Shown: positions 1-8,112, counted from the first letter of the stretch. The stretch: DNA of 8,112 nucleotides from a virus (IMGVR_UViG_2563366903_000016); one strand, 5' to 3'. Notes: a model not told the origin generated them from the sequence alone. Translations and numbers: made by a program.

Positions 1-165
1 GACGGTTTCTTCATCCAGTCTGGCATCAATGCGAATGTCCTCGTTGATGTAGCTCTGAATGGCCTGGCGTAATGCGGTTGGTTGTGCTCTGCCGAACGTT
101 TCAGGATCGATAACCGGTAGCGGTGCGTTCCATGGGTACGCCAGCTGTGCATTGCGGTCACTCAT
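1..165 (-). CDS. hypothetical protein, partial (C-terminus lies beyond the left window edge)
   Basis: ATG at 165-163 (minus) overlaps the TGA stop of the upstream gene (ATGA, 162-165). Frame stays open to position 1, 55 codons in window: MSDRNAQLAYPWNAPLPVIDPETFGRAQPTALRQAIQSYINEDIRIDARLDEETV. Absent from the ORF track, presumably because under 60 aa in-window. No family recognised. Confidence 0.45.
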   Translation of the reverse strand, partial: MSDRNAQLAYPWNAPLPVIDPETFGRAQPTALRQAIQSYINEDIRIDARLDEETV

Positions 166-578
166 GCGTCGTACTCCCCGGCAGTTGCCACCTGAAACGC
201 CGCGCGGTACAGCACGAGAAGGCGCTGGTATTCGCCGATAAAACCTTCTGCGGTGTATATACCTTTCACGGCCACGCTGTGGGTTGTCATTTCCAGAACC
301 AGCGCCATCTCTGATGACGACCAGCTGATGGCGGTACTGTCGGTGCCGTTGATGTGAAATAAACCCAGTCCATCACCATCACCTTTCACGTCCACGCGGT
401 AACGACCGTCCACGGTGAAGGAGAAATCCCCGTATGTGGTGACGCTGCGGGCAGCCTGTTTACAGGCGCGGCGGTAATAGTCGTGCCAGTTGTTCAGGCG
501 GGAAGCCAGCAGGGGATCCACCGCCCACATCCAGTTAAAGAAGTCCTGAATATCTGAAAGTCCCTTAACGCTCTTCAT
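162..578 (-). CDS. hypothetical protein (138 aa)
   Basis: ORF-track ORF with ATG at 578-576 and GGAGG 5 nt upstream (581-590 on + reads gaacctccgg). Stop overlaps the next start (ATGA). Protein-like composition; no family recognised. Confidence 0.6.
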   Translation of the reverse strand: MKSVKGLSDIQDFFNWMWAVDPLLASRLNNWHDYYRRACKQAARSVTTYGDFSFTVDGRYRVDVKGDGDGLGLFHINGTDSTAISWSSSEMALVLEMTTHSVAVKGIYTAEGFIGEYQRLLVLYRAAFQVATAGEYDA

Positions 579-646
579 GAGAACCTCCGGTAACAGATGT
601 GCGGAAGCCTCCCGCGTGCAGGTGTGGGATAGCTTCCGGATGTGGT

Positions 647-868
647 TTATCGGTGCTGGTTGATGAGGCTTTGCAGTTCTGCCAGGTCTTCGGCCAGATA
701 GCTGAAGACTGCCGCGTAATACCCGGCAGCGATACCGTCGTTAAGTCGGTGTAATACGTTTGACTGCATGATAAAGGCGACAGATGCAGCCCGATGGAGT
801 CTGCGGTTGATTTCGCTGCGGATGTGAAGACGCTCAGCGCGGGCGCGCTGTTGCTTGCGGTTTGCCAT
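647..868 (-). CDS. hypothetical small basic protein (73 aa), possibly nucleic-acid binding
   Basis: ATG at 868 preceded by GAAGAGG about 7 nt upstream. Arg/Lys-rich N-terminus (MANRKQQRARAERLHIRSEINRRLHR) then a hydrophobic/acidic helix-like C-terminus. Function is inferred from composition only. Confidence 0.5.
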   Translation of the reverse strand: MANRKQQRARAERLHIRSEINRRLHRAASVAFIMQSNVLHRLNDGIAAGYYAAVFSYLAEDLAELQSLINQHR

Positions 869-957
869 GGTGTGGCCTCTTCGTTTGTGAATTTTGAAAA
901 CTCACCAACCAGAGGTGGAAAACTCAGGGTGGCGAGACGTACAGGGTTTCCACAACC

Positions 958-993
958 GGCAAACGAAGAAACCGGCCCGACCGAAGTCGGCCC
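958..993 (-). terminator. candidate rho-independent terminator (minus strand)
   Basis: GC-rich stem 974-981 / 986-993 (8 bp, one mismatch) with a 4-nt loop that reads UUCG on the minus-strand RNA, followed on that strand by a U-rich stretch GGUUUCUUCGUUUG (958-973). Confidence 0.3.
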
Positions 994-1047
994 TGTACGC
1001 CCCGCCATAATTCTGACGCGAAAAAGACGTGGCGATACAGTACGCAC

Positions 1048-1089
1048 AAAAAAACCGCTGGCGCGGCTGTGCGCTTCGTTTGTCAGCGG
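1048..1089 (-). terminator. rho-independent terminator (minus strand)
   Basis: Inverted repeat CCGCTG (1055-1060) / CAGCGG (1084-1089) with extra internal GCGC pairing, followed immediately on the minus strand by seven U (A7 on + at 1048-1054). Confidence 0.45.
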
Positions 1090-1165
1090 GGTGGAAATCC
1101 CGGCACCCGTTTTATGAGGTGCAGCGGAAATGTAACCCGACACGACGAGCGCTGGCAAGCGGTTT

Positions 1166-1193
1166 TTGTGTTGCGTGCTGAAGTATGTATAAT
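1166..1193 (+). promoter_or_regulatory. candidate sigma70 promoter for the plus-strand gene 1255-1722
   Basis: Perfect -10 TATAAT at 1188-1193. Best -35 candidate is TTGTGT at 1166-1171 (16-bp spacer). A 7-bp stem-loop (1196-1202 / 1212-1218) sits at the predicted 5' end of the transcript, and GGAGG at 1244-1248 lies 6 nt before the ATG. Confidence 0.4.
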
Positions 1194-1254
1194 CGCGGCG
1201 CAAAAATGGAATGCGCCGAGGGATAGCGGCGTTTATTAACAATGGAGGTTGTTT

Positions 1255-1722
1255 ATGCCTGTTGCTATGGAGCAAGCAGACAAGAAGATTTTTTTTCATC
1301 TGTGGTACAGCTATTGGCTGGAAGAGATGGTTTTCATACTCAGCAATAAAGCCGCTGCCATGTTGCGCGCCGGGGCGCTGATTGCTGCGGTATTGTCCTT
1401 TCTTCTGGTTGGTTTTCCCGTCCTGATGAGCCTTTGGGGGCTGGCGTTTTTTGTTTTTTCCTGGTTTTGCAGCAAGTGTGAATTCGTCGCCGAACTGGCG
1501 TGCTGGCAGAAACAGAGCTACCTTCGTCTGATTACGCAAAGGGATTTCATGAGCACTGAACGCCTGATTGAGCGCATTCTGTATCTGGAAGAAACGAACA
1601 GCGCATCCATGAAGGCGTTTGTCAGGCCCGCAAAAAACAAAGCGAGCGCATCTGTTGGTCTGTCTGCCAGCGAGCATTTGCGTTACTCCGAAAGGTTAAT
1701 CTGCTGGTTGTGCGGCGTCTGA
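1255..1722 (+). CDS. hypothetical membrane protein (155 aa), plus-strand accessory gene
   Basis: ATG at 1255 with GGAGG 6 nt upstream (track start 1249 is an in-frame TTG). Enterobacterial-looking codon usage (CTG, GCG, GAA, CGC rich). Long hydrophobic segment GALIAAVLSFLLVGFPVLMSLWGLAFFVFSWF suggests 1-2 transmembrane helices, then an ~80-aa soluble C-terminal region. Own promoter; 3' end overlaps the convergent gene 1683-2045 by 40 bp. The minus-strand 370-aa ORF over this region looks compositionally non-protein-like. Confidence 0.55.
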   Translation: MPVAMEQADKKIFFHLWYSYWLEEMVFILSNKAAAMLRAGALIAAVLSFLLVGFPVLMSLWGLAFFVFSWFCSKCEFVAELACWQKQSYLRLITQRDFMSTERLIERILYLEETNSASMKAFVRPAKNKASASVGLSASEHLRYSERLICWLCGV

Positions 1723-2045
1723 TCGACTCCCGGCTGCGTGATGCTTTTACCGTCTTCCCTGACAGGCGGTAATGACACGTCTATGTTCAGCTTGAGTGCC
1801 ATTGCGTACTCCGCCCGCGCGCCAGCTGAATCCTCCCAGCCTTCCAGCAAGTAAATGACATCGGCACACATGAGCATCGGAATACAAATGCTCATGTACT
1901 GCTGCTGGCTTAATCCTTCCGGCAACGTGGCAGGGTTCAGCACAACGTGCCCGTCTGCCGCGAGCCTCATCGCCTCTATGAAAAACGCCGTTCTGTTGTG
2001 ATCTTTGTATCCGGTCATTGGACCGGCGATATAAATCACTGCCAT
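1683..2045 (-). CDS. DUF4406 / nucleoside 2-deoxyribosyltransferase-like protein (120 aa)
   Basis: N-terminal VIYIAGPMTG motif, followed by NPA and GWEDSAGARAEYAMA segments typical of the small NDT-like Rossmann-fold family (from memory of the family pattern). GGGAGG RBS 5 nt upstream of ATG 2045. Last gene of the minus-strand operon. Confidence 0.6.
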   Translation of the reverse strand: MAVIYIAGPMTGYKDHNRTAFFIEAMRLAADGHVVLNPATLPEGLSQQQYMSICIPMLMCADVIYLLEGWEDSAGARAEYAMALKLNIDVSLPPVREDGKSITQPGVDQTPHNQQINLSE

Positions 2046-2254
2046 GCTTTACCTCCCGTATTGCGTGTTGCTGTCAGCACGCGTACTTCTTCCATGTTCG
2101 TGGCGCAGAAGTGCGAACCGTTGATAAGGCGGATGTGATGCATCTCAGAATTGCGTGAGTCCTGGCGTGTCATGCCCTGGTCAATCAGGCTTTCGTCTAC
2201 CTCGTACTGACGGCCGTTGGCTGTGAATCTGATAACGGTTGATTCCTGGATCAT
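2036..2254 (-). CDS. hypothetical protein (72 aa)
   Basis: ATG at 2254 overlapping the upstream stop (ATGA, 2251-2254), with AGGAG about 7 nt upstream. No family recognised. Confidence 0.5.
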   Translation of the reverse strand: MIQESTVIRFTANGRQYEVDESLIDQGMTRQDSRNSEMHHIRLINGSHFCATNMEEVRVLTATRNTGGKAWQ

Positions 2255-2487
2255 TGCTGACTCCTTTGCCCGGCAGATTTCTCGTTGAGCTGCTTTTTAA
2301 GGGTGGCGATTTCACTTTCCTGATCCTGAATTACCTGAATTGCTTCCATGGTGATCCTCAGTGAGATTGCTGAAGTGATAACGAGCTCTGGTCTTCCAGC
2401 AGCAGCGATAACTTTTGCTGCTTCCTCATGTGCACGGGCGATGAGACGCAATTCCCGCAAAAGCTCTTTGTTGTTTTCGCTATTCAT
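2251..2487 (-). CDS. hypothetical protein (78 aa), helical/coiled-coil-like
   Basis: ATG at 2487 with GGAG upstream; charged, heptad-like sequence (ELLRELRLIARAHEEAAKV ... EIATLKKQLNEK). No family recognised. Confidence 0.5.
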   Translation of the reverse strand: MNSENNKELLRELRLIARAHEEAAKVIAAAGRPELVITSAISLRITMEAIQVIQDQESEIATLKKQLNEKSAGQRSQQ

Positions 2488-2521
2488 TTCCTGACTCCGG
2501 TGTTACTGATTTACTGGTTGT

Positions 2522-3502
2522 TTACGTACTGGCGGTGATTAACATCGCGCTGTAAGTTGCATCTTCCGTTACAGGTCCGCAGTCCGGGCAGTAGCCACCG
2601 CCATGGCGACCGCAGGCGTCGCACTGTCTCAGGGTGGCGATAACCTCCGGTGCTGATTCCCGGGTTCTTGCGCCAACGCTTCGTGGTGCCAGGATGGTGT
2701 TCATCCGGTAACCCTGATAAATGCGTCTGGTTTCCGGTGTGTCGGAATTGGAGATGGTGATGCTGGTCATGCCGCCCGTTTCCTGTGAAAGGCGGTCAAG
2801 CGCTGCCCTCAGACGAACGTGCTCGTCTTCATCGAATGGTTTTCCGTAGGCGGTAAAATTGTCCCGGCCACTGAATTGCAGGTAAGGGGGATCGCAGTAC
2901 ACGCAAAGCGTGTTGCCCATGCCGAACAGGTGACTGGCAGAGTTCAGCGTATCCTTAAAATCTGCGTGGATAAGCAGCGTTCGGGTGCTGTTTGCCTTGT
3001 CTGCAAATGCGCGGATTTCACGCTCAGGGAAGTAGGGCTTGCGGTAGCAGCCGAAAGGCACGTTAAAATCGCCTTTTCCGTTCACGCGGAACAAACTGTT
3101 AAAGCTGTGTCGGTTCAGGTACAAAAACATGGCGGCCAGTCGCAGTTCACGGCGGTCGCTTATTCCCGTTCTGCTGTTCAGGAAGGCATGATTCTCTGCG
3201 TTAAAGGTTTCGCGAATGATGAGATAGTCACCCCTGTTGTTGTGGTTCAGGAACAGGGTTTTCGCCTCGTCGATCAGGCTGTCGGTGTTGTCCCTGGCTT
3301 GCCGGTAGAAATTAATCAGCGCACCATTGGAATCACCCAGGATGTAACGCTTGTAACTGGTGTTCATGAATACCGATGCGCCGCCCACGAACGGCTCAAC
3401 CAGACAGTCGGCTTCTGGCAGGTGCGCCTTCAGTGTGTTCATGATGCGGCTTTTTCCGCCCACCCATTTCAGTGGCGTACCGGATAACAGTTCTTTGCTC
3501 AT
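2522..3502 (-). CDS. dam: DNA adenine (N6) methyltransferase, Dam family, with C-terminal Cys4 zinc-ribbon-like extension
   Basis: Dam-family signature blocks: LKWVGGKS, LVEPFVGGASVF (SAM-binding FxGxG), FLYLNR, FNVPFGCYRKPYFPE, catalytic VYCDPPY, NFTAY. Extra C-terminal tail carries CDACGRHGGGYCPDCG (CxxC-x8-CxxC). AAAGAGG RBS 7 nt upstream of ATG 3502; start overlaps the stop of the upstream ORF (ATGA). Confidence 0.9.
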   Translation of the reverse strand: MSKELLSGTPLKWVGGKSRIMNTLKAHLPEADCLVEPFVGGASVFMNTSYKRYILGDSNGALINFYRQARDNTDSLIDEAKTLFLNHNNRGDYLIIRETFNAENHAFLNSRTGISDRRELRLAAMFLYLNRHSFNSLFRVNGKGDFNVPFGCYRKPYFPEREIRAFADKANSTRTLLIHADFKDTLNSASHLFGMGNTLCVYCDPPYLQFSGRDNFTAYGKPFDEDEHVRLRAALDRLSQETGGMTSITISNSDTPETRRIYQGYRMNTILAPRSVGARTRESAPEVIATLRQCDACGRHGGGYCPDCGPVTEDATYSAMLITAST

Positions 3503-3726
3503 AACGCGGCCTCTTTGTTATAGTTTTCGTGCGTTAATAAATCCCATGACGCCCCGTTGTTTTTGCTCAGCAATCGCCAGCGAAAACCGATTCTTATTAC
3601 CAGGTAGTCGTGGGGTTTTATGCGTGAAAAATTCCGCACGCCGTCGCGGAATAAACGCAGCGATGCGCGGGCTTTTCTTTCCACGTTCAGGGGGGGGCAG
3701 CAACACACATTCAGGATGGCGACCAT
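3499..3726 (-). CDS. hypothetical small protein (75 aa) containing a C8/G8 homopolymer, translationally coupled to dam
   Basis: ATG at 3726 with strong GAGGTGA RBS 6 nt upstream, 9 nt after the exonuclease stop. Stop TGA overlaps the dam ATG (3499-3502). Codons 10-13 read through the homopolymer (TGC CCC CCC CTG). A second long open frame (3518-3706) also crosses the tract. Confidence 0.5.
   Translation of the reverse strand: MVAILNVCCCPPLNVERKARASLRLFRDGVRNFSRIKPHDYLVIRIGFRWRLLSKNNGASWDLLTHENYNKEAAL
3690..3697. repeat. G8/C8 homopolymeric tract (candidate slipped-strand site)
   Basis: Eight consecutive G on the plus strand (3690-3697), inside the 5' part of CDS 3499-3726. Confidence 0.9.
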
Positions 3727-3735
3727 GGCTTCACC

Positions 3736-4317
3736 TCATATGTTCAGGAATGGTGTTGTGAAGCGCTGCCAGATTTCTGACACGACCTTTGCCTGGTAAA
3801 TGGCGTCGCCCAGCGCGGTGTGAGCAATGGCCTCTTTTCCTGATCTGCCTGGCATTTTCCATCCAGTTGATTCAGCCATGGCGATAAGCGGGCGCATACA
3901 GCGCTCGTTCCAGTAGCACCAGGGGATGCTTTTTTCTCCGGCTGTGCGTGTTATGGCGGATTTCAGGATCGGGAAATCGAAGGATGCGCCCTTACACCAT
4001 ATGGTCAGTGAATTGCCCGTGCTTTCGTCATGCATATTGCGTGAAATGAACGCCAGAAATTCGGTTACTGCCGCAAGCTCTGTTCCCTCTGCGTTGCGCA
4101 GGCAGGATCTGGCCTCCACGGATTGTCCGGCCCACCATACGGCGGTTGCTGCATTGACGGTTCCACCGTTGCGTTCTGAATCCACCGGGTCGATGAGTTT
4201 CTCAAACTGTTTGCCCAGCTTTCCGGTGAACGGGTCGAAAAACACCGCGCCAATCGCGAATATGACTGCGTCCGGTCCGGTACCCAATGTTTCGGTGTCG
4301 ATCATGAGATGGTTCAC
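3736..4317 (-). CDS. DEDDh-family 3'-5' exonuclease (DnaQ-like fold)
   Basis: Exo I motif MIDTETLG (D-x-E), Exo II ASFDFPIL, Exo III HTALGDAIYQ (H-x4-D). Likely start is GTG at 4317 (AAGGAG 8 nt upstream; GTGA overlap with the upstream stop at 4314-4316); the alternative is ATG at 4305. Track start 4326 is a GTG directly abutting the SD and is unlikely. Confidence 0.8.
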   Translation of the reverse strand: MNHLMIDTETLGTGPDAVIFAIGAVFFDPFTGKLGKQFEKLIDPVDSERNGGTVNAATAVWWAGQSVEARSCLRNAEGTELAAVTEFLAFISRNMHDESTGNSLTIWCKGASFDFPILKSAITRTAGEKSIPWCYWNERCMRPLIAMAESTGWKMPGRSGKEAIAHTALGDAIYQAKVVSEIWQRFTTPFLNI

Positions 4318-4547
4318 TGTGTGCACTCCTTCTGTTCGGCGTTGTTCGTGAGCGTTGCAATCAGTCGTTCAATGGATGAGCAGGTTTCCTCCGGGGAGGT
4401 GTGCTTCTCTCTCGCTGTGTCAACCAGGTCACGCAGCAATTCGCAGATATGCGCACGCTCGGCTTTTCTTGCGGCCATGCTGATATGTGCATGATGGTTA
4501 GCTGGTCTGGCGGCTATTTCTCTGCCGGGTGATTCGGCTGTTCTCAT
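4314..4547 (-). CDS. hypothetical protein (77 aa)
   Basis: ATG at 4547 with AGGAG 7 nt upstream (track start 4571 is an in-frame TTG). Stop overlaps the exonuclease GTG start. No family recognised. Confidence 0.5.
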   Translation of the reverse strand: MRTAESPGREIAARPANHHAHISMAARKAERAHICELLRDLVDTAREKHTSPEETCSSIERLIATLTNNAEQKECTQ

Positions 4548-4647
4548 TTGTTGACTCCTGAAAAAAGACAAAGGGACCCCGAAGGCATGAATGCCTTAAT
4601 TAATTGCTCGTGTGTTTTCTGGTGTTATTCCGCGCCTGCTTTCGGCT

Positions 4648-4749
4648 TCAGATTATCCCCAGATTCTTCAGTGCTAACCAGATAAGCGCACTCACCTGAA
4701 ATATCACCCATGCAGTAGCGATGGTGAGTATTACTTTTACATTCTTCAT
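4648..4749 (-). CDS. candidate small hydrophobic peptide (33 aa)
   Basis: Untracked ORF ATG 4749 to TGA 4648: MKNVKVILTIATAWVIFQVSALIWLALKNLGII. Begins 12 nt after the stop of the upstream peptide gene; no clear SD, so it would rely on reinitiation. Confidence 0.2.
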   Translation of the reverse strand: MKNVKVILTIATAWVIFQVSALIWLALKNLGII

Positions 4750-4761
4750 AAAGTTTTCGCT

Positions 4762-4887
4762 TTATTTACGGCGTTTGTCGCCAGTAAAAAATAATTCGAT
4801 ATCCTTCAGTGCGTGGATAATTCGCATAATGCCGATTGCCATAAGTACGGAGATAATCAGAATTACCCATGAAAGAAATATGCTCAT
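4762..4887 (-). CDS. candidate small membrane peptide (41 aa)
   Basis: Untracked ORF (under 60 aa): MSIFLSWVILIISVLMAIGIMRIIHALKDIELFFTGDKRRK, one predicted TM helix and a basic C-terminus. ATG 4887 overlaps the TGA of the upstream gene (ATGA); AGGAG 8 nt upstream. Confidence 0.4.
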   Translation of the reverse strand: MSIFLSWVILIISVLMAIGIMRIIHALKDIELFFTGDKRRK

Positions 4888-5126
4888 GCGGCCACTCCTG
4901 TGAAGTAAGGCTCGACAATTTCACCTTCAAACAGTTCTGTCATAATCGACTTTAATTCTTCCAGTGCTTCACGGTCATCGCTGCCCAGCGCGCAGTTGTA
5001 TAGCCCCATAATTGCGCCGCGCAGTGAGTTACGAAGGCTTTCATCCTTAGTTACGCCCCGGTTTGCAAGTTCGAAGTGGTAACGCTGCAACGCGTTATTA
5101 ATAAGTATTTTGTAGGCTTCGATCAT
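4884..5126 (-). CDS. hypothetical protein (80 aa)
   Basis: ATG at 5126 with AAGGA 6 nt upstream; protein-like acidic composition. No family recognised. Confidence 0.55.
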   Translation of the reverse strand: MIEAYKILINNALQRYHFELANRGVTKDESLRNSLRGAIMGLYNCALGSDDREALEELKSIMTELFEGEIVEPYFTGVAA

Positions 5127-5144
5127 GGCTGAATCCTTTATTTA

Positions 5145-5480
5145 TCAGTGCTTGCTTCCCGGATATTGAAAACGCAGGCCGTTGATTAATCTGTCTGCCG
5201 TTCTTAAGGCTTCAAAAAATGTGAAATCCTGTCCGAAGTAATCATCCCCGCGAGTCAGGGTGAAATTAAATCTGCCAGTAACAGGGCTGCGAAAACTTTT
5301 GTGAATAACGATGCCAGTGTCGCCAATCGTCCAGGTGTGCTTGCCGGTTTGTTTTATCGGATGGCCGTCTGGTGTTGCGTGGATTTCAGTGGTTACGGTC
5401 GCACTATTTTTACGGAAGTGCTGGCGTGCAACGTGGCGTTCGGTGTTGTTATTGATGCGTGCATTTCGTTGTTGCTTCAT
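5145..5480 (-). CDS. hypothetical protein (111 aa)
   Basis: ATG at 5480, moderate SD (GAGTGAAGA); basic N-terminus then a predicted beta-rich region. No family recognised. Confidence 0.55.
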   Translation of the reverse strand: MKQQRNARINNNTERHVARQHFRKNSATVTTEIHATPDGHPIKQTGKHTWTIGDTGIVIHKSFRSPVTGRFNFTLTRGDDYFGQDFTFFEALRTADRLINGLRFQYPGSKH

Positions 5481-5505
5481 TCTTCACTCGGTCCTTATGC
5501 GATGA

Positions 5506-5700
5506 TTACAGTGATTCGTCTCTTGTCAGCCTAAAAATCACTTCAGCCATGACTTCGCTAATTACATCGATCCCCTGATCGGTAAGGGCTTCTTTCCAGG
5601 CCTTGCTTGCACGTGTTGGATCCATCCTGCCTGATTGCTGTTGTATGATGATGAAGCGTAAATCGCTGTATAAGTCTTTTGTTTGAGTGGAGTCAGTCAT
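5506..5700 (-). CDS. hypothetical small protein (64 aa; possibly shorter, from internal ATG at 5625)
   Basis: ATG at 5700 with weak AAGG SD. Its start codon overlaps the start codon of the plus-strand gene on the opposite strand (CATG at 5698-5701). The internal ATG at 5625 has an AGGCAGG SD-like sequence. Confidence 0.4.
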   Translation of the reverse strand: MTDSTQTKDLYSDLRFIIIQQQSGRMDPTRASKAWKEALTDQGIDVISEVMAEVIFRLTRDESL

Positions 5701-6136
5701 GTCAATACCTTCAAATCTTGATGTTTTTAATGAAACAGTTGGTAAAACTTTTGCGTTTCTTTATGAAACTTTTCCCCGCAAAGTAACTATTGATATTTGT
5801 GCCTTAACCGGTGTTTCAGAGCTGACTTTTGAAGAAGACCGATCCTCCAGGAGGCAACTAGTTGAAGCTCTTGAGCTTCGCCGTGACTCCATCGCATGGC
5901 TTGTTGATGCTGGTTATGTATCCGCTAAATCTTCTCCTCCGCATTACTTTTCTGATGCGGTTCTCACGGCCAAAGGTCTTGAATTACTTAAGCTTGATCC
6001 AGAGTCACTTAAACAATCATTTGGCGACAAGCTTGTTGATGCAGCCAAGAGTGGCTCAATGGACGCGATAAAAAGCACCGCATCATCCGCTCTTACTACT
6101 GGGTTATCCTTTGCTTTCAAAAGTCTTCTTGGTTGA
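5699..6136 (+). CDS. hypothetical protein (145 aa) on the opposite strand in AT-rich DNA, candidate moron/accessory gene
   Basis: ATG at 5699 with GGAG 6 nt upstream (track start 5687 is an in-frame GTG). Coding region is visibly AT-richer than its flanks (by eye, not computed). Antisense to the early operon and convergent with cox. Candidate -10 TATAAG at 5669-5674; hairpin at 6179-6204 downstream. No family recognised. Confidence 0.55.
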   Translation: MSIPSNLDVFNETVGKTFAFLYETFPRKVTIDICALTGVSELTFEEDRSSRRQLVEALELRRDSIAWLVDAGYVSAKSSPPHYFSDAVLTAKGLELLKLDPESLKQSFGDKLVDAAKSGSMDAIKSTASSALTTGLSFAFKSLLG

Positions 6137-6178
6137 TTGTTGCGCCCCCGCATAACACCAACGATTAGATTATTTACG

Positions 6179-6204
6179 GCGAAATCTCCTGTTGTGGATT
6201 TCGC
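6179..6204. terminator. stem-loop between convergent genes (candidate terminator for the plus-strand gene)
   Basis: Perfect 8-bp inverted repeat GCGAAATC (6179-6186) / GATTTCGC (6197-6204) with a 10-nt loop. On the plus strand it is followed by a T-rich stretch (TGTGTGTTTGATATT, then T6 at 6227-6232); on the minus strand the following sequence is not U-rich. Confidence 0.3.
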
Positions 6205-6217
6205 TGTGTGTTTGATA

Positions 6218-6643
6218 TTAAGCTGCTTTTTTACTGATACGTTTATTCCGTGAACCAGCTGCTGGCTTAAATAAAAAAAGTCGGTTTTCCCATTCGTGCC
6301 ATTCTTGCGGTGCGTTTTCAGTGAGTCGATCGCAGGCTTCATCCCATGCTTTCCGGTTGATGTAAAGTTCGGCGTTTCCGCCAGGCTTGAGAGGGTCCGC
6401 CATGTACACAGCGGGTAATTTCCCTGCTTTTGCCATGCTCACGATGGCGTCAACGGTCTTGCCGATATACATCGCAAACCCTTCTTTTGACAGGAGATGA
6501 GAAGGGTTTTGTGAAAGCCTGATTTCTTGGCGTTCAGGGGCTTTGCGCCCGGTCTTTTGGTGTGCGGTTTCTGGCGCATCTGTCAACTGATCGCACTGTG
6601 TTTCGGCAGGCGATTCAGGCGCGTTTTGAGTGACTTCTTGCAT
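6218..6643 (-). CDS. cox: Cox-like excisionase/transcriptional regulator with an N-terminal acidic extension
   Basis: C-terminal ~85 aa (EGFAMYIGKTVDAIVSMAKAGKLPAVYMADP ... AELYINRKAWDE) match my recollection of P2 Cox (EFAKLIGKSTGAVRRMIDKGKLPVIDMTDP ... AGEYWVYLPAWN). ATG at 6643 has GGAGGA 5 nt upstream; an internal ATG at 6472 also has an SD (GAAGGG) but would remove conserved residues. Divergent from the repressor gene. Confidence 0.65.
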   Translation of the reverse strand: MQEVTQNAPESPAETQCDQLTDAPETAHQKTGRKAPERQEIRLSQNPSHLLSKEGFAMYIGKTVDAIVSMAKAGKLPAVYMADPLKPGGNAELYINRKAWDEACDRLTENAPQEWHEWENRLFLFKPAAGSRNKRISKKAA

Positions 6644-6750
6644 CTGGTATCCTCCGTTATTGGTGCTATTTCTATTTAGCACCAGTTAGAGCCGCCTAGA
6701 TTGTCTCTAGGTGTGTTTGTTGATGTATAAACTAAGAGAGTTAACTTACT
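6644..6750. promoter_or_regulatory. divergent cox/C promoter-operator (switch) region
   Basis: 107-bp intergenic region between divergent cox and C. Contains palindrome TGGTGCTA-n8-TAGCACCA (6661-6684) and palindrome CTAGA-n5-TCTAG (6696-6710). Candidate -10 TATAAA (6726-6731) for the repressor transcript. Exact promoters were not resolved. Confidence 0.5.
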
Positions 6751-7050
6751 ATGTCAACTAACGTAGGTGAAAAAATTAGAATCATGCGTAAGTCTGAAAT
6801 GCTTACACAAGAAAAAATGGCTGAAATTACAGGGCTCACGGTAGCGGCCCTGCGTCAATATGAACAGGGGAGAAATGAGCCAAATCTTGAATCCACAAAA
6901 AAGCTGCTCAAGTCTCCCGTCTTCCGTAAATACCGTGACTGGTTTTTGTTCGATGAGGTCGAACCAAAGGCCGGGCAGGTGGTACCGGCTCTCGCACACA
7001 TTGGGCGAAGCGAATCGGAATCACCCCACTCCGGCAAGAAGACTGGTTAA
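6751..7050 (+). CDS. C: P2 C-type immunity repressor (99 aa)
   Basis: Length and sequence match my recollection of P2 C: EKIRIMRKSE, ITGLTVAALRQYEQGR (HTH region), and C-terminal PALAHIGRSESESPHSGKKTG against P2 PALAHFGQNETTSPHSGQKTG. Sits immediately upstream of int on the same strand, as in P2. Confidence 0.85.
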   Translation: MSTNVGEKIRIMRKSEMLTQEKMAEITGLTVAALRQYEQGRNEPNLESTKKLLKSPVFRKYRDWFLFDEVEPKAGQVVPALAHIGRSESESPHSGKKTG

Positions 7051-7116
7051 CGGTCCATCTGGCCTTTATTTCTCAAAATTGTGATCAAGATGATGTTTTC
7101 ATTGGGGGGCTTCCTT

Positions 7117-8112
7117 ATGTCGATTAAGAAGCTCGCTGATGGCAAATACTGTGTGGACGTGCGGCCTGCTGGATCTGAAGGAAGAAGATTTCGGCGGCGA
7201 TTTCCTACCCGTGGTGAAGCGGCGATGTATGAACGCCATGTTCTGACGCATTATCACGATAAGGACTGGGTCGAAAAACCTATTGAACGTAAAGCGTTAA
7301 GCGATCTTCTGGAACTGTGGTGGGTGTACCACGGTAAGAATCATCGTTATGGCGCGATGAATCGGGTCAGAATTGAAGCGGTTCTTCGTGATATGCAAGA
7401 GCTTGGTATTAACAGAAGTGACCACTTAACCCGAAAAAATATTATCAGATATCGCCTTGAATTAATGAATCGCGGAATTAAGCAGTCAACGGTAAATCGT
7501 TATTGTGCAATGATGAGCGGTTTCTTTGAAAAGCTGATTGATGTTGAAGAGTTTGTGGGTGATAACCCGTTTCACGAGATACGCAAGCTAACAATTAATC
7601 AGCCGGAAATGGCTTATCTTGCACATGATGATATTCCCAGGCTAACCGCACTTTTATCTGGCGATAATCTTAAGGCTGTATTGTTAAGCCTGGCTACAGG
7701 CGGGCGCTGGAGTGAAGTTGCCAATATTAAAGGTGAACACATAATTGGTGGGAAGGTTATTTTTATGGAGACAAAGAATGGATCGCGGCGGGTTATTCCT
7801 ATAGCTAAAGATCTTGAATCTCTGATTAAAGTCAAAGCGACGGGAAGATTAATGAACCCCAGTTATGCGATAGTCAGAAGTGCAATAAGGACTGTGCGGC
7901 CTGATTTACCAGTCGGTCAGTCTGTGCATGTTTTACGGCACACATTCGCAACTCATTTCATGATTAATGGAGGGAACATTATTACCCTTCAGCGTATTTT
8001 AGGGCACAGCACAATTCAGCAAACAATGACCTATGCGCACTTTGCGCCTGATTATCTCCAGGACGCGGTAAGGTTCAATCCGGTTGCGGAGTTGTCCAGA
8101 TTTTGCCCATAA
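7117..8112 (+). CDS. int: tyrosine site-specific integrase (P2 Int-like)
   Basis: N-terminus MSIKKLADGKYCVDVRP resembles the P2 Int N-terminus. C-terminal catalytic region has HVLRHTFATHF (His and Arg box) and the tyrosine in TMTYAHF. ATG 7117 chosen over the track GTG 7081 by homology. Complete ORF; TAA stop at 8110-8112 is the last codon of the window. Confidence 0.9.
   Translation: MSIKKLADGKYCVDVRPAGSEGRRFRRRFPTRGEAAMYERHVLTHYHDKDWVEKPIERKALSDLLELWWVYHGKNHRYGAMNRVRIEAVLRDMQELGINRSDHLTRKNIIRYRLELMNRGIKQSTVNRYCAMMSGFFEKLIDVEEFVGDNPFHEIRKLTINQPEMAYLAHDDIPRLTALLSGDNLKAVLLSLATGGRWSEVANIKGEHIIGGKVIFMETKNGSRRVIPIAKDLESLIKVKATGRLMNPSYAIVRSAIRTVRPDLPVGQSVHVLRHTFATHFMINGGNIITLQRILGHSTIQQTMTYAHFAPDYLQDAVRFNPVAELSRFCP

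What the first reader, a model, noticed from the sequence alone, without database searches (positions are those of the whole stretch)
1683..4317. Exonuclease, methyltransferase and NDT-like genes share one operon
A DEDDh 3'-5' exonuclease, a Dam-family methyltransferase and a DUF4406/nucleoside 2-deoxyribosyltransferase-like protein are co-transcribed and linked by overlapping stop/start codons. Together they could form a DNA-modification or nucleotide-processing module, for example for anti-restriction or replication fidelity. This is a functional guess from gene content; the genes may also act independently.
Basis: inference. Interest (0 to 1): 0.5.

Follow-up and report, generated by a model that had tools for sequence, protein, structure and literature searches.

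The report
Separable accessory genes in P2-like prophage
An exonuclease, a Dam methylase and a small NDT-like gene lie in the early operon of a P2-like E. coli prophage, but related phages carry them in every partial combination, so they are separable cassettes and not one fixed three-enzyme module.

Summary
All three genes are real, intact and co-oriented on the minus strand: exonuclease 4317-3736, Dam 3502-2522, DUF4406 2045-1683. They are not joined directly to each other. Three small ORFs lie between them, and the whole string is the cargo part of the cox-to-A early operon of a P88-like P2-family prophage.

Relatives carry every partial combination: none (P88), Exo only, Exo-Dam, Dam-DUF4406, or all three.

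Two pairwise links survive.
- orf77-Exo-(ParE-like)-Dam is kept together in P2-like prophages down to 43-50% Exo identity. The Dam copies next to Exo carry a zinc-ribbon tail that is fused upstream of the same exonuclease domain in one lambdoid protein examined here.
- DUF4406 has an NDT/DNPH1-like fold with the nucleophile Glu conserved. It sits next to DNA methyltransferases of five families about five times more often than neighbouring genes do.

The exonuclease matches the cloning primers of EcD, a published E. coli DexA homologue that digests 5hmC T4 DNA. That paper does not mention a prophage context.

Verdict: mostly ordinary mosaic phage cargo, with two modest new leads.

The parts
4314..4547 (-). 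orf77, a small ORF of unknown function that always precedes the exonuclease in P2-like prophages
   Evidence: ATG at 4547; its stop overlaps the Exo GTG start (GTGA). Matches phrog_22206. A homologue lies directly upstream of Exo in almost all P2-like Exo loci.
3736..4317 (-). DexA/EcD-type DEDDh 3'-5' exonuclease, 193 aa from GTG 4317 or 189 aa from ATG 4305
   Evidence: PF16473 E 8e-51. Nearest solved structure is 8kel, 'Exodeoxyribonuclease', 227 aa, E 1e-22. DEDDh residues are invariant in the close clade. The published EcD cloning primers match 4305-4289 (16 of 17) and 3736-3754 (with one extra A in the primer).
3499..3726 (-). ParE-like toxin-domain ORF, 75 aa, with no visible antitoxin partner
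   Evidence: PF24732 E 2e-17; phrog_1525. ATGA overlap with the Dam start. Present in only some Exo-Dam loci and placed after Dam in L140.
2522..3502 (-). Orphan Dam-family N6-adenine DNA methyltransferase, probably GATC-specific, with a C-terminal CxxC...CxxC tail (residues about 294-309)
   Evidence: PF02086 E 5e-51. E. coli Dam 2g1p E 4e-51, with DPPY and the aligned K, N, L, R and P recognition residues conserved. Best PADLOC match is an orphan MTase. No restriction gene is annotated in the prophage. The tail is 49% identical to a motif in a lambdoid exonuclease fusion protein.
2251..2487 (-). orf78, a small ORF of unknown function
   Evidence: phrog_23826 E 7e-52; Shine-Dalgarno sequence and ATG. 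Absent in L087/L166 and L095.
2036..2254 (-). orf72, a small ORF of unknown function
   Evidence: phrog_3459 E 1e-34. ATGA overlap with orf78 and a 10-nt overlap with DUF4406.
1683..2045 (-). DUF4406 protein: a minimal NDT/DNPH1-like predicted N-glycosidase (core about 92 aa plus a disordered tail)
   Evidence: PF14359 E 1.5e-33. AF2 pLDDT 81. Foldseek top hits are 2a0k NDT, DNPH1 and MilB, TM about 0.6. hhalign to DNPH1 aligns E79 with the nucleophile E104, S73 with S98 and Y5 with Y24. E, S and G are invariant in 34 distant members.

Best explanation
The interval is the variable cargo section of the early (cox to replication gene A) operon of a P88-like, P2-family prophage of E. coli. It is assembled from separable cassettes centred on an orphan, probably GATC-specific, Dam methylase.

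Cassettes:
1. orf77, an EcD/DexA-type 3'-5' exonuclease, an optional ParE-like ORF, and a Dam with a zinc-ribbon tail. This block is inherited together in P2-like prophages of Enterobacterales.
2. Two small unknown ORFs (orf78, orf72).
3. DUF4406, a minimal NDT/DNPH1-like enzyme. It moves among thousands of phages and tends to sit beside DNA methyltransferases of any class.

Shown here: gene identities, intact catalytic motifs, gene order and junctions, the mosaic distribution in relatives, and the two pairwise associations.

Inferred:
- The string is transcribed from the early promoter on induction or infection, with translational coupling at the overlaps.
- Dam fully methylates replicating phage DNA.
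- By homology with EcD, the exonuclease attacks modified (5hmC-type) foreign DNA rather than ordinary DNA.
- DUF4406 cleaves the glycosidic bond of a nucleotide by-product of DNA methylation or degradation. Candidates are a methylated or hydroxymethylated dNMP, as for DNPH1 and MilB, or S-adenosylhomocysteine.

The three proteins share a theme, the handling of modified DNA and nucleotides. They do not form an obligate pathway.
For: Context:
- The window is 99% identical to an E. coli prophage with P2-type structural genes, int, C, cox and replication endonuclease A.
- The nearest named phage is P88, which has different cargo in the same slot.
- GC content shifts from 0.43-0.47 (4500-8000) to 0.50-0.56 (1-4500).

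Separability:
- Klebsiella and other P2-like prophages carry orf77-Exo-Dam without DUF4406.
- L168, L180 and L186 carry Dam-DUF4406 with overlapping codons and no Exo.
- JNEC-KY174 has Exo-Dam only, and TUM9803 has Exo only.
- Only 31 of 5426 complete E. coli genomes carry the segment.

Exo-Dam link:
- Dam is adjacent in 5 of 15 Exo clusters, all in the clade nearest the window.
- The Dam tail is 49% identical to a motif that lies 65 residues upstream of a 39%-identical Exo domain in one 813-aa lambdoid protein. It also hits the exonuclease VIII profile NF007259 and phrog_20376.
- The tail is present in 12 of 16 Exo-adjacent Dam clusters and 0 of 5 other Dam clusters.

DUF4406-MTase link:
- DUF4406 is next to an MTase in 13 of 63 dereplicated clusters, against 4.9% of neighbouring genes (odds ratio 5, p 4.5e-5). 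A within-window permutation expects 4.5 and observes 13.
- Five MTase families are involved. Examples are N15 gp57-gp58 and Aeromonas phage 4_D05 gp08-gp07.

Exo identity: EcD primer matches and the published EcD activity.

DUF4406 chemistry: fold and a conserved nucleophile Glu.
Against: - There are no expression data. P2-type early operons are repressed in lysogens (established knowledge). The native role of an EcD-type 'defence' nuclease placed here is therefore unclear.
- No DUF4406 member has a tested activity. Only three papers mention the family, and none is functional.
- About 80% of DUF4406 genes are not next to a methyltransferase. In this window DUF4406 is separated from Dam by two ORFs.
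- Both statistical associations weaken under the strictest dereplication. DUF4406-MTase is 3 of 15 against 6.5%, p 0.09, at 60% clustering. The zinc tail is 3 of 5 against 0 of 4, p 0.17, at 70% clustering.
- The Exo-Dam adjacency is confined to one clade and could be simple vertical inheritance.
- The gene calls used for the statistics are crude six-frame ORFs.
Confidence: 0.6

Rival explanations
1. One reading: the exonuclease, Dam and DUF4406 are one obligate three-enzyme module that makes or processes a modified base or nucleotide for anti-restriction. None of them works properly without the others.
For: - All three lie on one strand in a tightly packed string.
- The trio recurs elsewhere in another order and, in Aeromonas, with a non-homologous methyltransferase: Aeromonas L046 DUF4406-Exo-MTase, L036/L053, Vibrio L080 and viral contig L134.
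- Structural homologues of DUF4406 act on modified nucleotides.
Against: - Every partial combination exists in close and distant relatives.
- Only 5 of 63 DUF4406 clusters have Exo within the window examined.
- Only 2 of 15 Exo clusters have DUF4406.
- A natural Dam-DUF4406 deletion hybrid exists (P0064 and L093).
- There is no base-modifying enzyme beyond an ordinary Dam.
Confidence: 0.08
2. The genes are functionally unrelated. They sit together only because this slot of the P2-type early operon tolerates insertions, and early-expressed DNA-metabolism genes of temperate phages accumulate in the same few kilobases.
For: - The cargo is mosaic and P88 has unrelated genes in the slot.
- Small ORFs come and go between close relatives.
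- Most DUF4406 genes lie in nin-like regions of lambdoid prophages, beside replication, NinB, NinG, RusA and lysis genes.
- The associations lose significance at the strictest dereplication.
Against: - DUF4406 is next to a methyltransferase about five times more often than other genes of the same windows, and with five different MTase families.
- The same zinc-ribbon motif is attached either to Dam or, in cis, upstream of the Exo domain.
Confidence: 0.25
3. The block is a prophage-borne defence island expressed in the lysogen. In this reading the EcD-type exonuclease destroys modified DNA of superinfecting T-even phages, and Dam acts as the self-marking partner, like a restriction-modification pair.
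For: - Plasmid-borne EcD protects E. coli from T4 and digests 5hmC DNA but not unmodified DNA.
- The window gene matches the EcD primers.
- P2-like prophages are known carriers of defence genes such as old, tin and fun (own knowledge).
Against: - The genes lie inside the early operon, downstream of cox. That operon is repressed in P2-type lysogens (established knowledge).
- No promoter-like site was found upstream of orf77/Exo.
- The host already has Dam, and EcD is reported to spare unmodified DNA, so a protective methylase is not required.
- PADLOC gives only a weak generic DEDDh hit.
Confidence: 0.07

Closest known systems
EcD / 'HREX' exonuclease of E. coli and T4 DexA (Kang et al., Nucleic Acids Res 2025, PMC12153337)
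   Same: - Same DEDDh family (PF16473). The nearest solved structure is 8kel, a 227-aa 'Exodeoxyribonuclease', E 1e-22; I take it to be T4 DexA from its name and length (own knowledge).
- The EcD forward primer matches codon 5 onward (16 of 17 in the window, exact in the 99%-identical prophage). The reverse primer matches the 3' end apart from one extra A.
- Ala at EcD position 78 corresponds to A82 here. The Trp equivalent to DexA W152 is conserved as W136.
   Different: - The paper treats EcD as a bacterial defence gene and never mentions a prophage. Here the gene sits in the repressible early operon of a P2-like prophage, next to Dam.
- The acidic residue equivalent to DexA D169 aligns with G152 (E149 is nearby), so the 5hmC specificity of this copy is not established.
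E. coli Dam and phage orphan Dam methylases (for example P1 and T4 Dam)
   Same: D12-class fold. E 4e-51 to E. coli Dam structures, with the DPPY motif and the aligned DNA-recognition residues conserved. There is no cognate nuclease.
   Different: It carries a roughly 35-residue C-terminal CxxC...CxxC tail that is absent from E. coli Dam. The tail is shared with a lambdoid 'exodeoxyribonuclease VIII'-like protein.
Nucleoside 2-deoxyribosyltransferase / DNPH1 (Rcl) / MilB-BcmB N-glycosidase superfamily
   Same: Rossmann-like fold, TM about 0.6. The N-terminal Tyr with Gly-rich loop, the Ser-x-Gly motif and the nucleophile Glu align with DNPH1 Y24, S98, G100 and E104.
   Different: - The core is only about 92 residues, with four strands. 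It lacks the C-terminal elements that complete the active site in NDTs.
- No equivalent of the general-acid Asp was identified.
- It does not match PF05014. It belongs to a separate family (PF14359) of more than 10,000 50%-identity clusters with no characterised member.
Accessory (cargo) region of the early operon of P2-like phages, for example phage P88 (Xuanwuvirus)
   Same: Same backbone order: int, C, cox, DUF4761, DUF4754, small membrane ORF, cargo, derepression protein, orf138-like gene, replication endonuclease A.
   Different: P88 carries a winged-helix protein, an Ead/Ea22-like protein, a membrane protein and a lipoprotein in place of Exo, Dam and DUF4406.
Phage N15 gene 57 - gene 58 pair
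   Same: A DUF4406 gene (55% identical) whose end overlaps the start of a DNA methyltransferase gene.
   Different: The partner is a C5-cytosine methyltransferase downstream, in a linear plasmid-prophage. There is no exonuclease.

Membership tests
DEDDh 3'-5' exonucleases, DexA/EcD (PF16473) branch | The five catalytic residues D, E, D, D and H in Exo motifs I-III | tested here: met
   D7, E9, D114, H166 and D171 are present and invariant in the close clade. PF16473 E 8e-51, covering the full length of the profile.
EcD / HREX (5hmC-directed exonuclease) | Loss of the tetramer-forming Asp (DexA D90; Ala78 in EcD) | tested here: met
   Counting from Met5, the start used in the EcD construct, position 78 is Ala (A82 of the 193-aa ORF). 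The profile alignment places DexA D90 at L81/A82.
EcD / HREX (5hmC-directed exonuclease) | Trp and acidic residue proposed to read 5hmC (DexA W152 and D169) | tested here: inconclusive
   W136 aligns with W152. D169 aligns with G152, with E149 three residues away in a loop that aligns poorly.
EcD / HREX (5hmC-directed exonuclease) | Selective digestion of 5hmC DNA and protection against T4 | not testable with these tools
   Requires enzyme assays and plating. Only primer-level identity to the tested gene was shown.
Dam (D12-class, GATC) N6-adenine methyltransferases | SAM-binding FxGxG-type motif, catalytic DPPY, and the EcoDam DNA-recognition residues | tested here: met
   EPFVGGASVF and DPPY are present. 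The aligned K (LKW), N, L and R (FNSLFRVN) and P (NVPFG) are conserved against 2g1p. TIGR00571 scores 221 bits against a cut-off of 115. The assignment of residue roles comes from own knowledge of the EcoDam structure.
Dam (D12-class, GATC) N6-adenine methyltransferases | Actual GATC methylation | not testable with these tools
   Needs methylome sequencing or DpnI/MboI digestion.
Type II restriction-modification system | A cognate restriction endonuclease gene next to the methylase | tested here: not met
   No restriction gene is annotated in the prophage. The best PADLOC model is an orphan MTase.
Nucleoside 2-deoxyribosyltransferase / DNPH1 superfamily | NDT-type Rossmann-like fold | tested here: met
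   The top 29 Foldseek PDB hits (and nearly all of the top 50) are NDT, DNPH1, MilB and related N-glycosidases, probability 1.0, TM about 0.6.
Nucleoside 2-deoxyribosyltransferase / DNPH1 superfamily | Catalytic nucleophile Glu in the D/S-x-G-x-x-x-E motif | tested here: met
   E79 aligns with DNPH1 E104. The Glu is invariant in 34 distant family members and nearly invariant in A1. The hhalign score itself is weak (E 0.034).
Nucleoside 2-deoxyribosyltransferase / DNPH1 superfamily | General-acid Asp and C-terminal or neighbouring-subunit elements that complete the active site | tested here: inconclusive
   No aligned Asp was found. The folded core ends at about residue 92 and residues 99-120 are predicted disordered. 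Invariant N37, Y50 and M51 may substitute.
Nucleoside 2-deoxyribosyltransferase family proper (PF05014) | Match to the PF05014 profile | tested here: not met
   Only PF14359 and a sub-threshold PF09152 hit were found. The sequence-level match to 2a0k has E 0.18.
ParE/RelE toxin-antitoxin pair | An adjacent antitoxin gene | tested here: not met
   The neighbours are Exo and Dam, and no antitoxin-like ORF is present.
   All partial combinations occur. The trio appears in about 4 of 63 DUF4406 clusters and 2 of 15 Exo clusters.

The most novel reading that the evidence does not exclude
The three genes cooperate in a 'degrade and sanitise' response to hypermodified foreign DNA.
- The EcD-type exonuclease, docked to Dam through the zinc-ribbon tail, digests 5hmC-type DNA of competing T-even phages.
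- DUF4406 acts like DNPH1 on hmdUMP or MilB on hmCMP. It splits the released modified (or methylated) dNMPs so that they cannot be re-incorporated into phage or host DNA, where they would attract modification-dependent restriction.
- More broadly, DUF4406 would be a previously unrecognised phage nucleotide-pool sanitiser that accompanies DNA methyltransferases.
Probability: 0.1. Interest if true: 0.7.

Novelty: new member of a known kind. Interest (0 to 1): 0.38.

Why it matters
The operon as described is ordinary phage mosaicism, but three points are useful.

1. The recently published 'bacterial' anti-T4 exonuclease EcD appears to be an early-operon gene of P2-like prophages and is nearly always paired with a Dam methylase. 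This changes how its natural expression and role should be studied.
2. DUF4406 is a family of more than 10,000 sequence clusters with no known function. It keeps the catalytic Glu of DNPH1-type N-glycosidases and shows a measurable tendency to sit beside DNA methyltransferases of any chemistry. This suggests specific substrates to test: methylated or hydroxymethylated dNMPs and SAH.
3. A small zinc-ribbon motif shared between the Dam tail and an exonuclease fusion protein hints at a physical Dam-exonuclease link.

Tried and rejected
- A sequence search of the PDB with the DUF4406 profile gave no significant hit. The best were chance matches to glucokinase regulatory protein, and NDT 2a0k scored only E 0.18. 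The fold search was needed instead.
- The literature has three papers that mention DUF4406, none functional, and none for PF14359. Searches for NDT with anti-defence or methyltransferase neighbourhoods found nothing on this family.
- I looked for informative domain fusions of DUF4406 in 34 long family members and found none.
- PADLOC gave no defence-system match for DUF4406, ParE-like, orf78 or orf72. Similarity to retron NDT effectors is therefore not supported at sequence level.
- The diverse Exo alignment A2 was too variable for a locus scan, so I replaced it with A3.
- My first zinc-motif regular expression missed the motif because the alignment already covered the tail. I redid the count. 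Other 712-848-aa Exo fusion proteins lack the motif.
- A protein search with the Dam tail alone returned only two fragments.
- No flanking direct or inverted repeats suggest a mobile cassette. No tRNA was found. No RNA family lies inside the interval.
- I rejected the 'proofreading plus Dam-directed repair' idea because the exonuclease is DexA-type. Its only polymerase-exonuclease hit is marginal (2p1j, E 0.002).
- I rejected an R-M reading because no restriction gene is present.

Full report
**What is there**

The window is 99% identical to a chromosomal segment of E. coli DETEC-S792. That segment is the left end of a prophage with P2-type capsid, tail, terminase and portal genes, a replication endonuclease (gene A), cox, a C-type repressor and an integrase. 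It is inserted next to chpSB and ppa. The nearest named phage is P88 (Xuanwuvirus, Peduoviridae).

The minus strand of the window carries the early operon, in this order:
- cox (6643-6218)
- orf64 (a plus-strand ORF, 5687-6136, lies between cox and orf64)
- DUF4761
- DUF4754
- a 41-aa hydrophobic ORF
- orf77 (4547-4314)
- exonuclease (4317-3736)
- ParE-like ORF (3726-3499)
- Dam (3502-2522)
- orf78 (2487-2251)
- orf72 (2254-2036)
- DUF4406 (2045-1683)
- a roughly 1.1-kb stretch holding isrK and C4 antisense RNA genes and a derepression-protein gene
- orf138
- the start of gene A

**Checking the observation**

The three named genes are real.
- The exonuclease matches PF16473 end to end (E 8e-51) and keeps all five DEDDh residues.
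- The methylase matches PF02086 and TIGR00571. It aligns with E. coli Dam structures at E 4e-51 and keeps DPPY and the aligned DNA-contact residues.
- DUF4406 matches PF14359 (E 1.5e-33). Its AlphaFold model (pLDDT 81) finds nucleoside 2-deoxyribosyltransferases, DNPH1 and MilB/BcmB as best structural matches.

All six genes from Exo to DUF4406 have Shine-Dalgarno sequences. The consensus scan shows no promoter-like site and only one weak terminator-like site on that strand inside the interval.

The claim that the three are linked to each other by overlapping codons is wrong in detail. Three small ORFs intervene. The overlaps are orf77/Exo, ParE-like/Dam, orf78/orf72 and orf72/DUF4406, with gaps of 9 and 34 nt after Exo and after Dam. 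Co-transcription is plausible from P2 biology but was not tested.

**Is it a module?**

P88 has unrelated cargo in the same slot. Only 31 of 5426 complete E. coli genomes carry the segment. Among these, two have Exo-Dam without DUF4406 and two have Exo alone.

In 80 IMG/VR loci found with the exonuclease, the order orf77-Exo-(ParE-like)-Dam is kept in P2-like prophages down to 43-50% Exo identity. DUF4406 appears only in the closest E. coli set and in one degraded locus. A Klebsiella genome shows the same arrangement. After dereplication, 5 of 15 Exo clusters have an adjacent Dam, all in the clade nearest the window. More distant Exo genes stand alone or form the C-terminal domain of 712-848-aa proteins.

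Conversely, other P2-like prophages (L168, L180, L186) carry Dam-DUF4406 with overlapping codons and no exonuclease.

DUF4406 itself occurs in 541 phage records, including N15, phiKO2, PY54, D6 and many Vibrio, Aeromonas and actinobacteriophages. The family has 20,922 50%-identity clusters. Most copies lie in nin-like regions of lambdoid prophages.

**What survives: DUF4406 and methyltransferases**

I analysed 159 DUF4406 loci (80 species genomes and 79 viral contigs), dereplicated to 63 clusters. A DNA methyltransferase is the immediate neighbour in 13 clusters (21%). The same is true for 32 of 652 (4.9%) of the other genes within 4 kb (odds ratio 5, p 4.5e-5). A within-window permutation expects 4.5 and observes 13.

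The partners belong to five families: D12 Dam, a 'YANPPY' adenine type, an MT-A70-like type, an N6_N4 type and C5. The hosts are Enterobacterales, Aeromonas, Vibrio, Clostridia, Actinomycetota and Betaproteobacteria. Annotated examples are N15 gene 57-gene 58 and Aeromonas phage 4_D05 gp08-gp07.

The effect size holds at 60% clustering, but the numbers become too small (3 of 15 against 6.5%, p 0.09). Four further phages inspected by hand show no adjacency. This is a tendency, not a rule.

**What survives: Exo and Dam**

Exo and Dam are adjacent across one clade. In addition, the Dam copies next to Exo carry a C-terminal CxxC...CxxC tail. That tail is 49% identical (pairwise E 2e-9) to a motif lying 65 residues upstream of a 39%-identical exonuclease domain in an 813-aa lambdoid 'exodeoxyribonuclease VIII'. 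It also hits NF007259 and phrog_20376.

The tail is present in 12 of 16 Exo-adjacent Dam clusters and 0 of 5 others (p 0.006). This drops to 3 of 5 against 0 of 4 at 70% clustering. The link is suggestive only.

**Identity of the exonuclease**

Its nearest solved structure is 8kel, a 227-aa 'Exodeoxyribonuclease' (E 1e-22); I take it to be T4 DexA from its name and length (own knowledge).

A 2025 paper (PMC12153337) reports that an E. coli DexA homologue, EcD, digests 5hmC-containing T4 DNA but not unmodified DNA. Expressed from a plasmid, it protects cells against T4.

The paper's cloning primers identify the gene:
- The gene-specific part of EcD_F matches the window at 4305-4289 in 16 of 17 bases. 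It matches exactly in the 99%-identical prophage and in eight other loci, seven of them P2-like loci carrying this gene and one a duplicate stretch of L087's contig.
- The gene-specific part of EcD_R equals the last 19 bases of the gene, including the stop codon, apart from one extra A.

Counted from Met5, the Ala that replaces DexA Asp90 in EcD (A78) is A82 here. The Trp proposed to read 5hmC is conserved. The acidic partner is not clearly aligned.

The paper does not contain the word 'prophage'. The genomic context found here, an early-operon gene of a P2-like prophage paired with Dam, appears not to have been described in the searchable literature.

**Likely workings**

On induction or infection the string is probably transcribed from the early promoter. 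This is an inference from P2 biology.
- Dam, an orphan enzyme with no nuclease partner, would complete GATC methylation of replicating phage DNA. GATC is about half as frequent in the prophage as in the host flank.
- The exonuclease probably acts on modified foreign DNA, as EcD does.
- DUF4406 keeps the Tyr, the Ser-x-Gly motif and the nucleophile Glu of DNPH1, but it is a truncated four-strand version without an identified general acid. The most economical guess is an N-glycosidase acting on a nucleotide tied to DNA methylation or degradation. Candidates are methylated or hydroxymethylated dNMPs, by analogy with DNPH1 and MilB, or SAH, the common product of all methyltransferase classes. None of this is shown.

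**Verdict**

The finding is largely ordinary: mosaic accessory genes in a known kind of phage operon, annotated as such in RefSeq. The three-gene module is not supported. Two pairwise associations and the EcD context are modest new leads worth an experiment.

Noticed in passing
window 925-1122 (minus strand) and 647-868 (minus strand): A C4 antisense RNA (82 bits) and an isrK sRNA (64 bits) lie side by side between DUF4406 and a derepression-protein gene (PF25738). This looks like a P1/P7-type antisense-controlled anti-repressor unit inside a P2-like early region. The mechanical 370-aa ORF at 565-1677 overlaps these RNA genes and is probably spurious. The same pseudo-ORF sequence recurs in L168 and L180 because the RNA region is conserved.
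   Followed up: partly
window 5687-6136 (plus strand): A 149-aa ORF is encoded antisense to the early operon, between cox and orf64. It has no Pfam, PADLOC or NCBIfam match. It is annotated as hypothetical in RefSeq and absent from P88, so it may be a moron with its own promoter.
   Followed up: partly
window 2525-2650 (minus strand; Dam residues about 285-326): The Dam C-terminal motif CDACGRHGGGYCPDCGPVTEDATY is shared with an 813-aa lambdoid 'exodeoxyribonuclease VIII' (ON470583 3921-6362). In that protein it precedes a DEDDh domain 39% identical to the window exonuclease. This may be a docking motif linking Dam and Exo.
   Followed up: partly
window 3499-3726 (minus strand): A solitary ParE-like toxin-domain ORF with no antitoxin neighbour is translationally coupled to Dam. 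In relatives it is sometimes absent, and in L140 it lies after Dam.
   Followed up: partly
P0064 and locus L093 5060-5413: A 117-aa hybrid protein joins the N-terminus of Dam to the C-terminal part of DUF4406 (Pfam PF02086 plus PF14359). It is apparently a deletion between the two genes in some E. coli prophages, which shows that an intact Dam is dispensable there.
   Followed up: no
window 4649-4750 and 4762-4887 (minus strand): Two very small hydrophobic ORFs (33 and 41 aa) lie upstream of orf77. They are followed at 4605-4565 by a short hairpin and a T-run, which might attenuate read-through into the Exo-Dam block.
   Followed up: no
window about 4500: Base composition changes from GC 0.43-0.47 on the int/cox side to 0.50-0.56 on the Exo-Dam-DUF4406-A side, consistent with a mosaic origin. 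The Exo gene of the otherwise 99%-identical prophage L001 is only 96.4% identical, a local mosaic patch.
   Followed up: no
locus L046 7971-10961 (Aeromonas rivipollensis); loci L004 and L005 (Edwardsiella anguillarum): DUF4406 is directly followed, with overlapping codons, by a homologous DEDDh exonuclease. In Aeromonas this is followed by a non-homologous adenine methyltransferase. The trio or the pair has therefore been assembled independently in other gene orders.
   Followed up: partly
loci L168 2279-2809 and L180 2497-3030: In P2-like prophages that have Dam-DUF4406 but no exonuclease, the slot upstream of Dam holds a roughly 176-aa ORF. Its N-terminus looks ASCH-like by eye; this was not tested against Pfam.
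   Followed up: no
whole window and locus L001: GATC occurs at 3.1 per kb in the prophage and 6.3 per kb in the flanking host DNA. The count is 88 observed against about 126 expected from a Markov model, a mild avoidance of the presumed Dam target.
   Followed up: no
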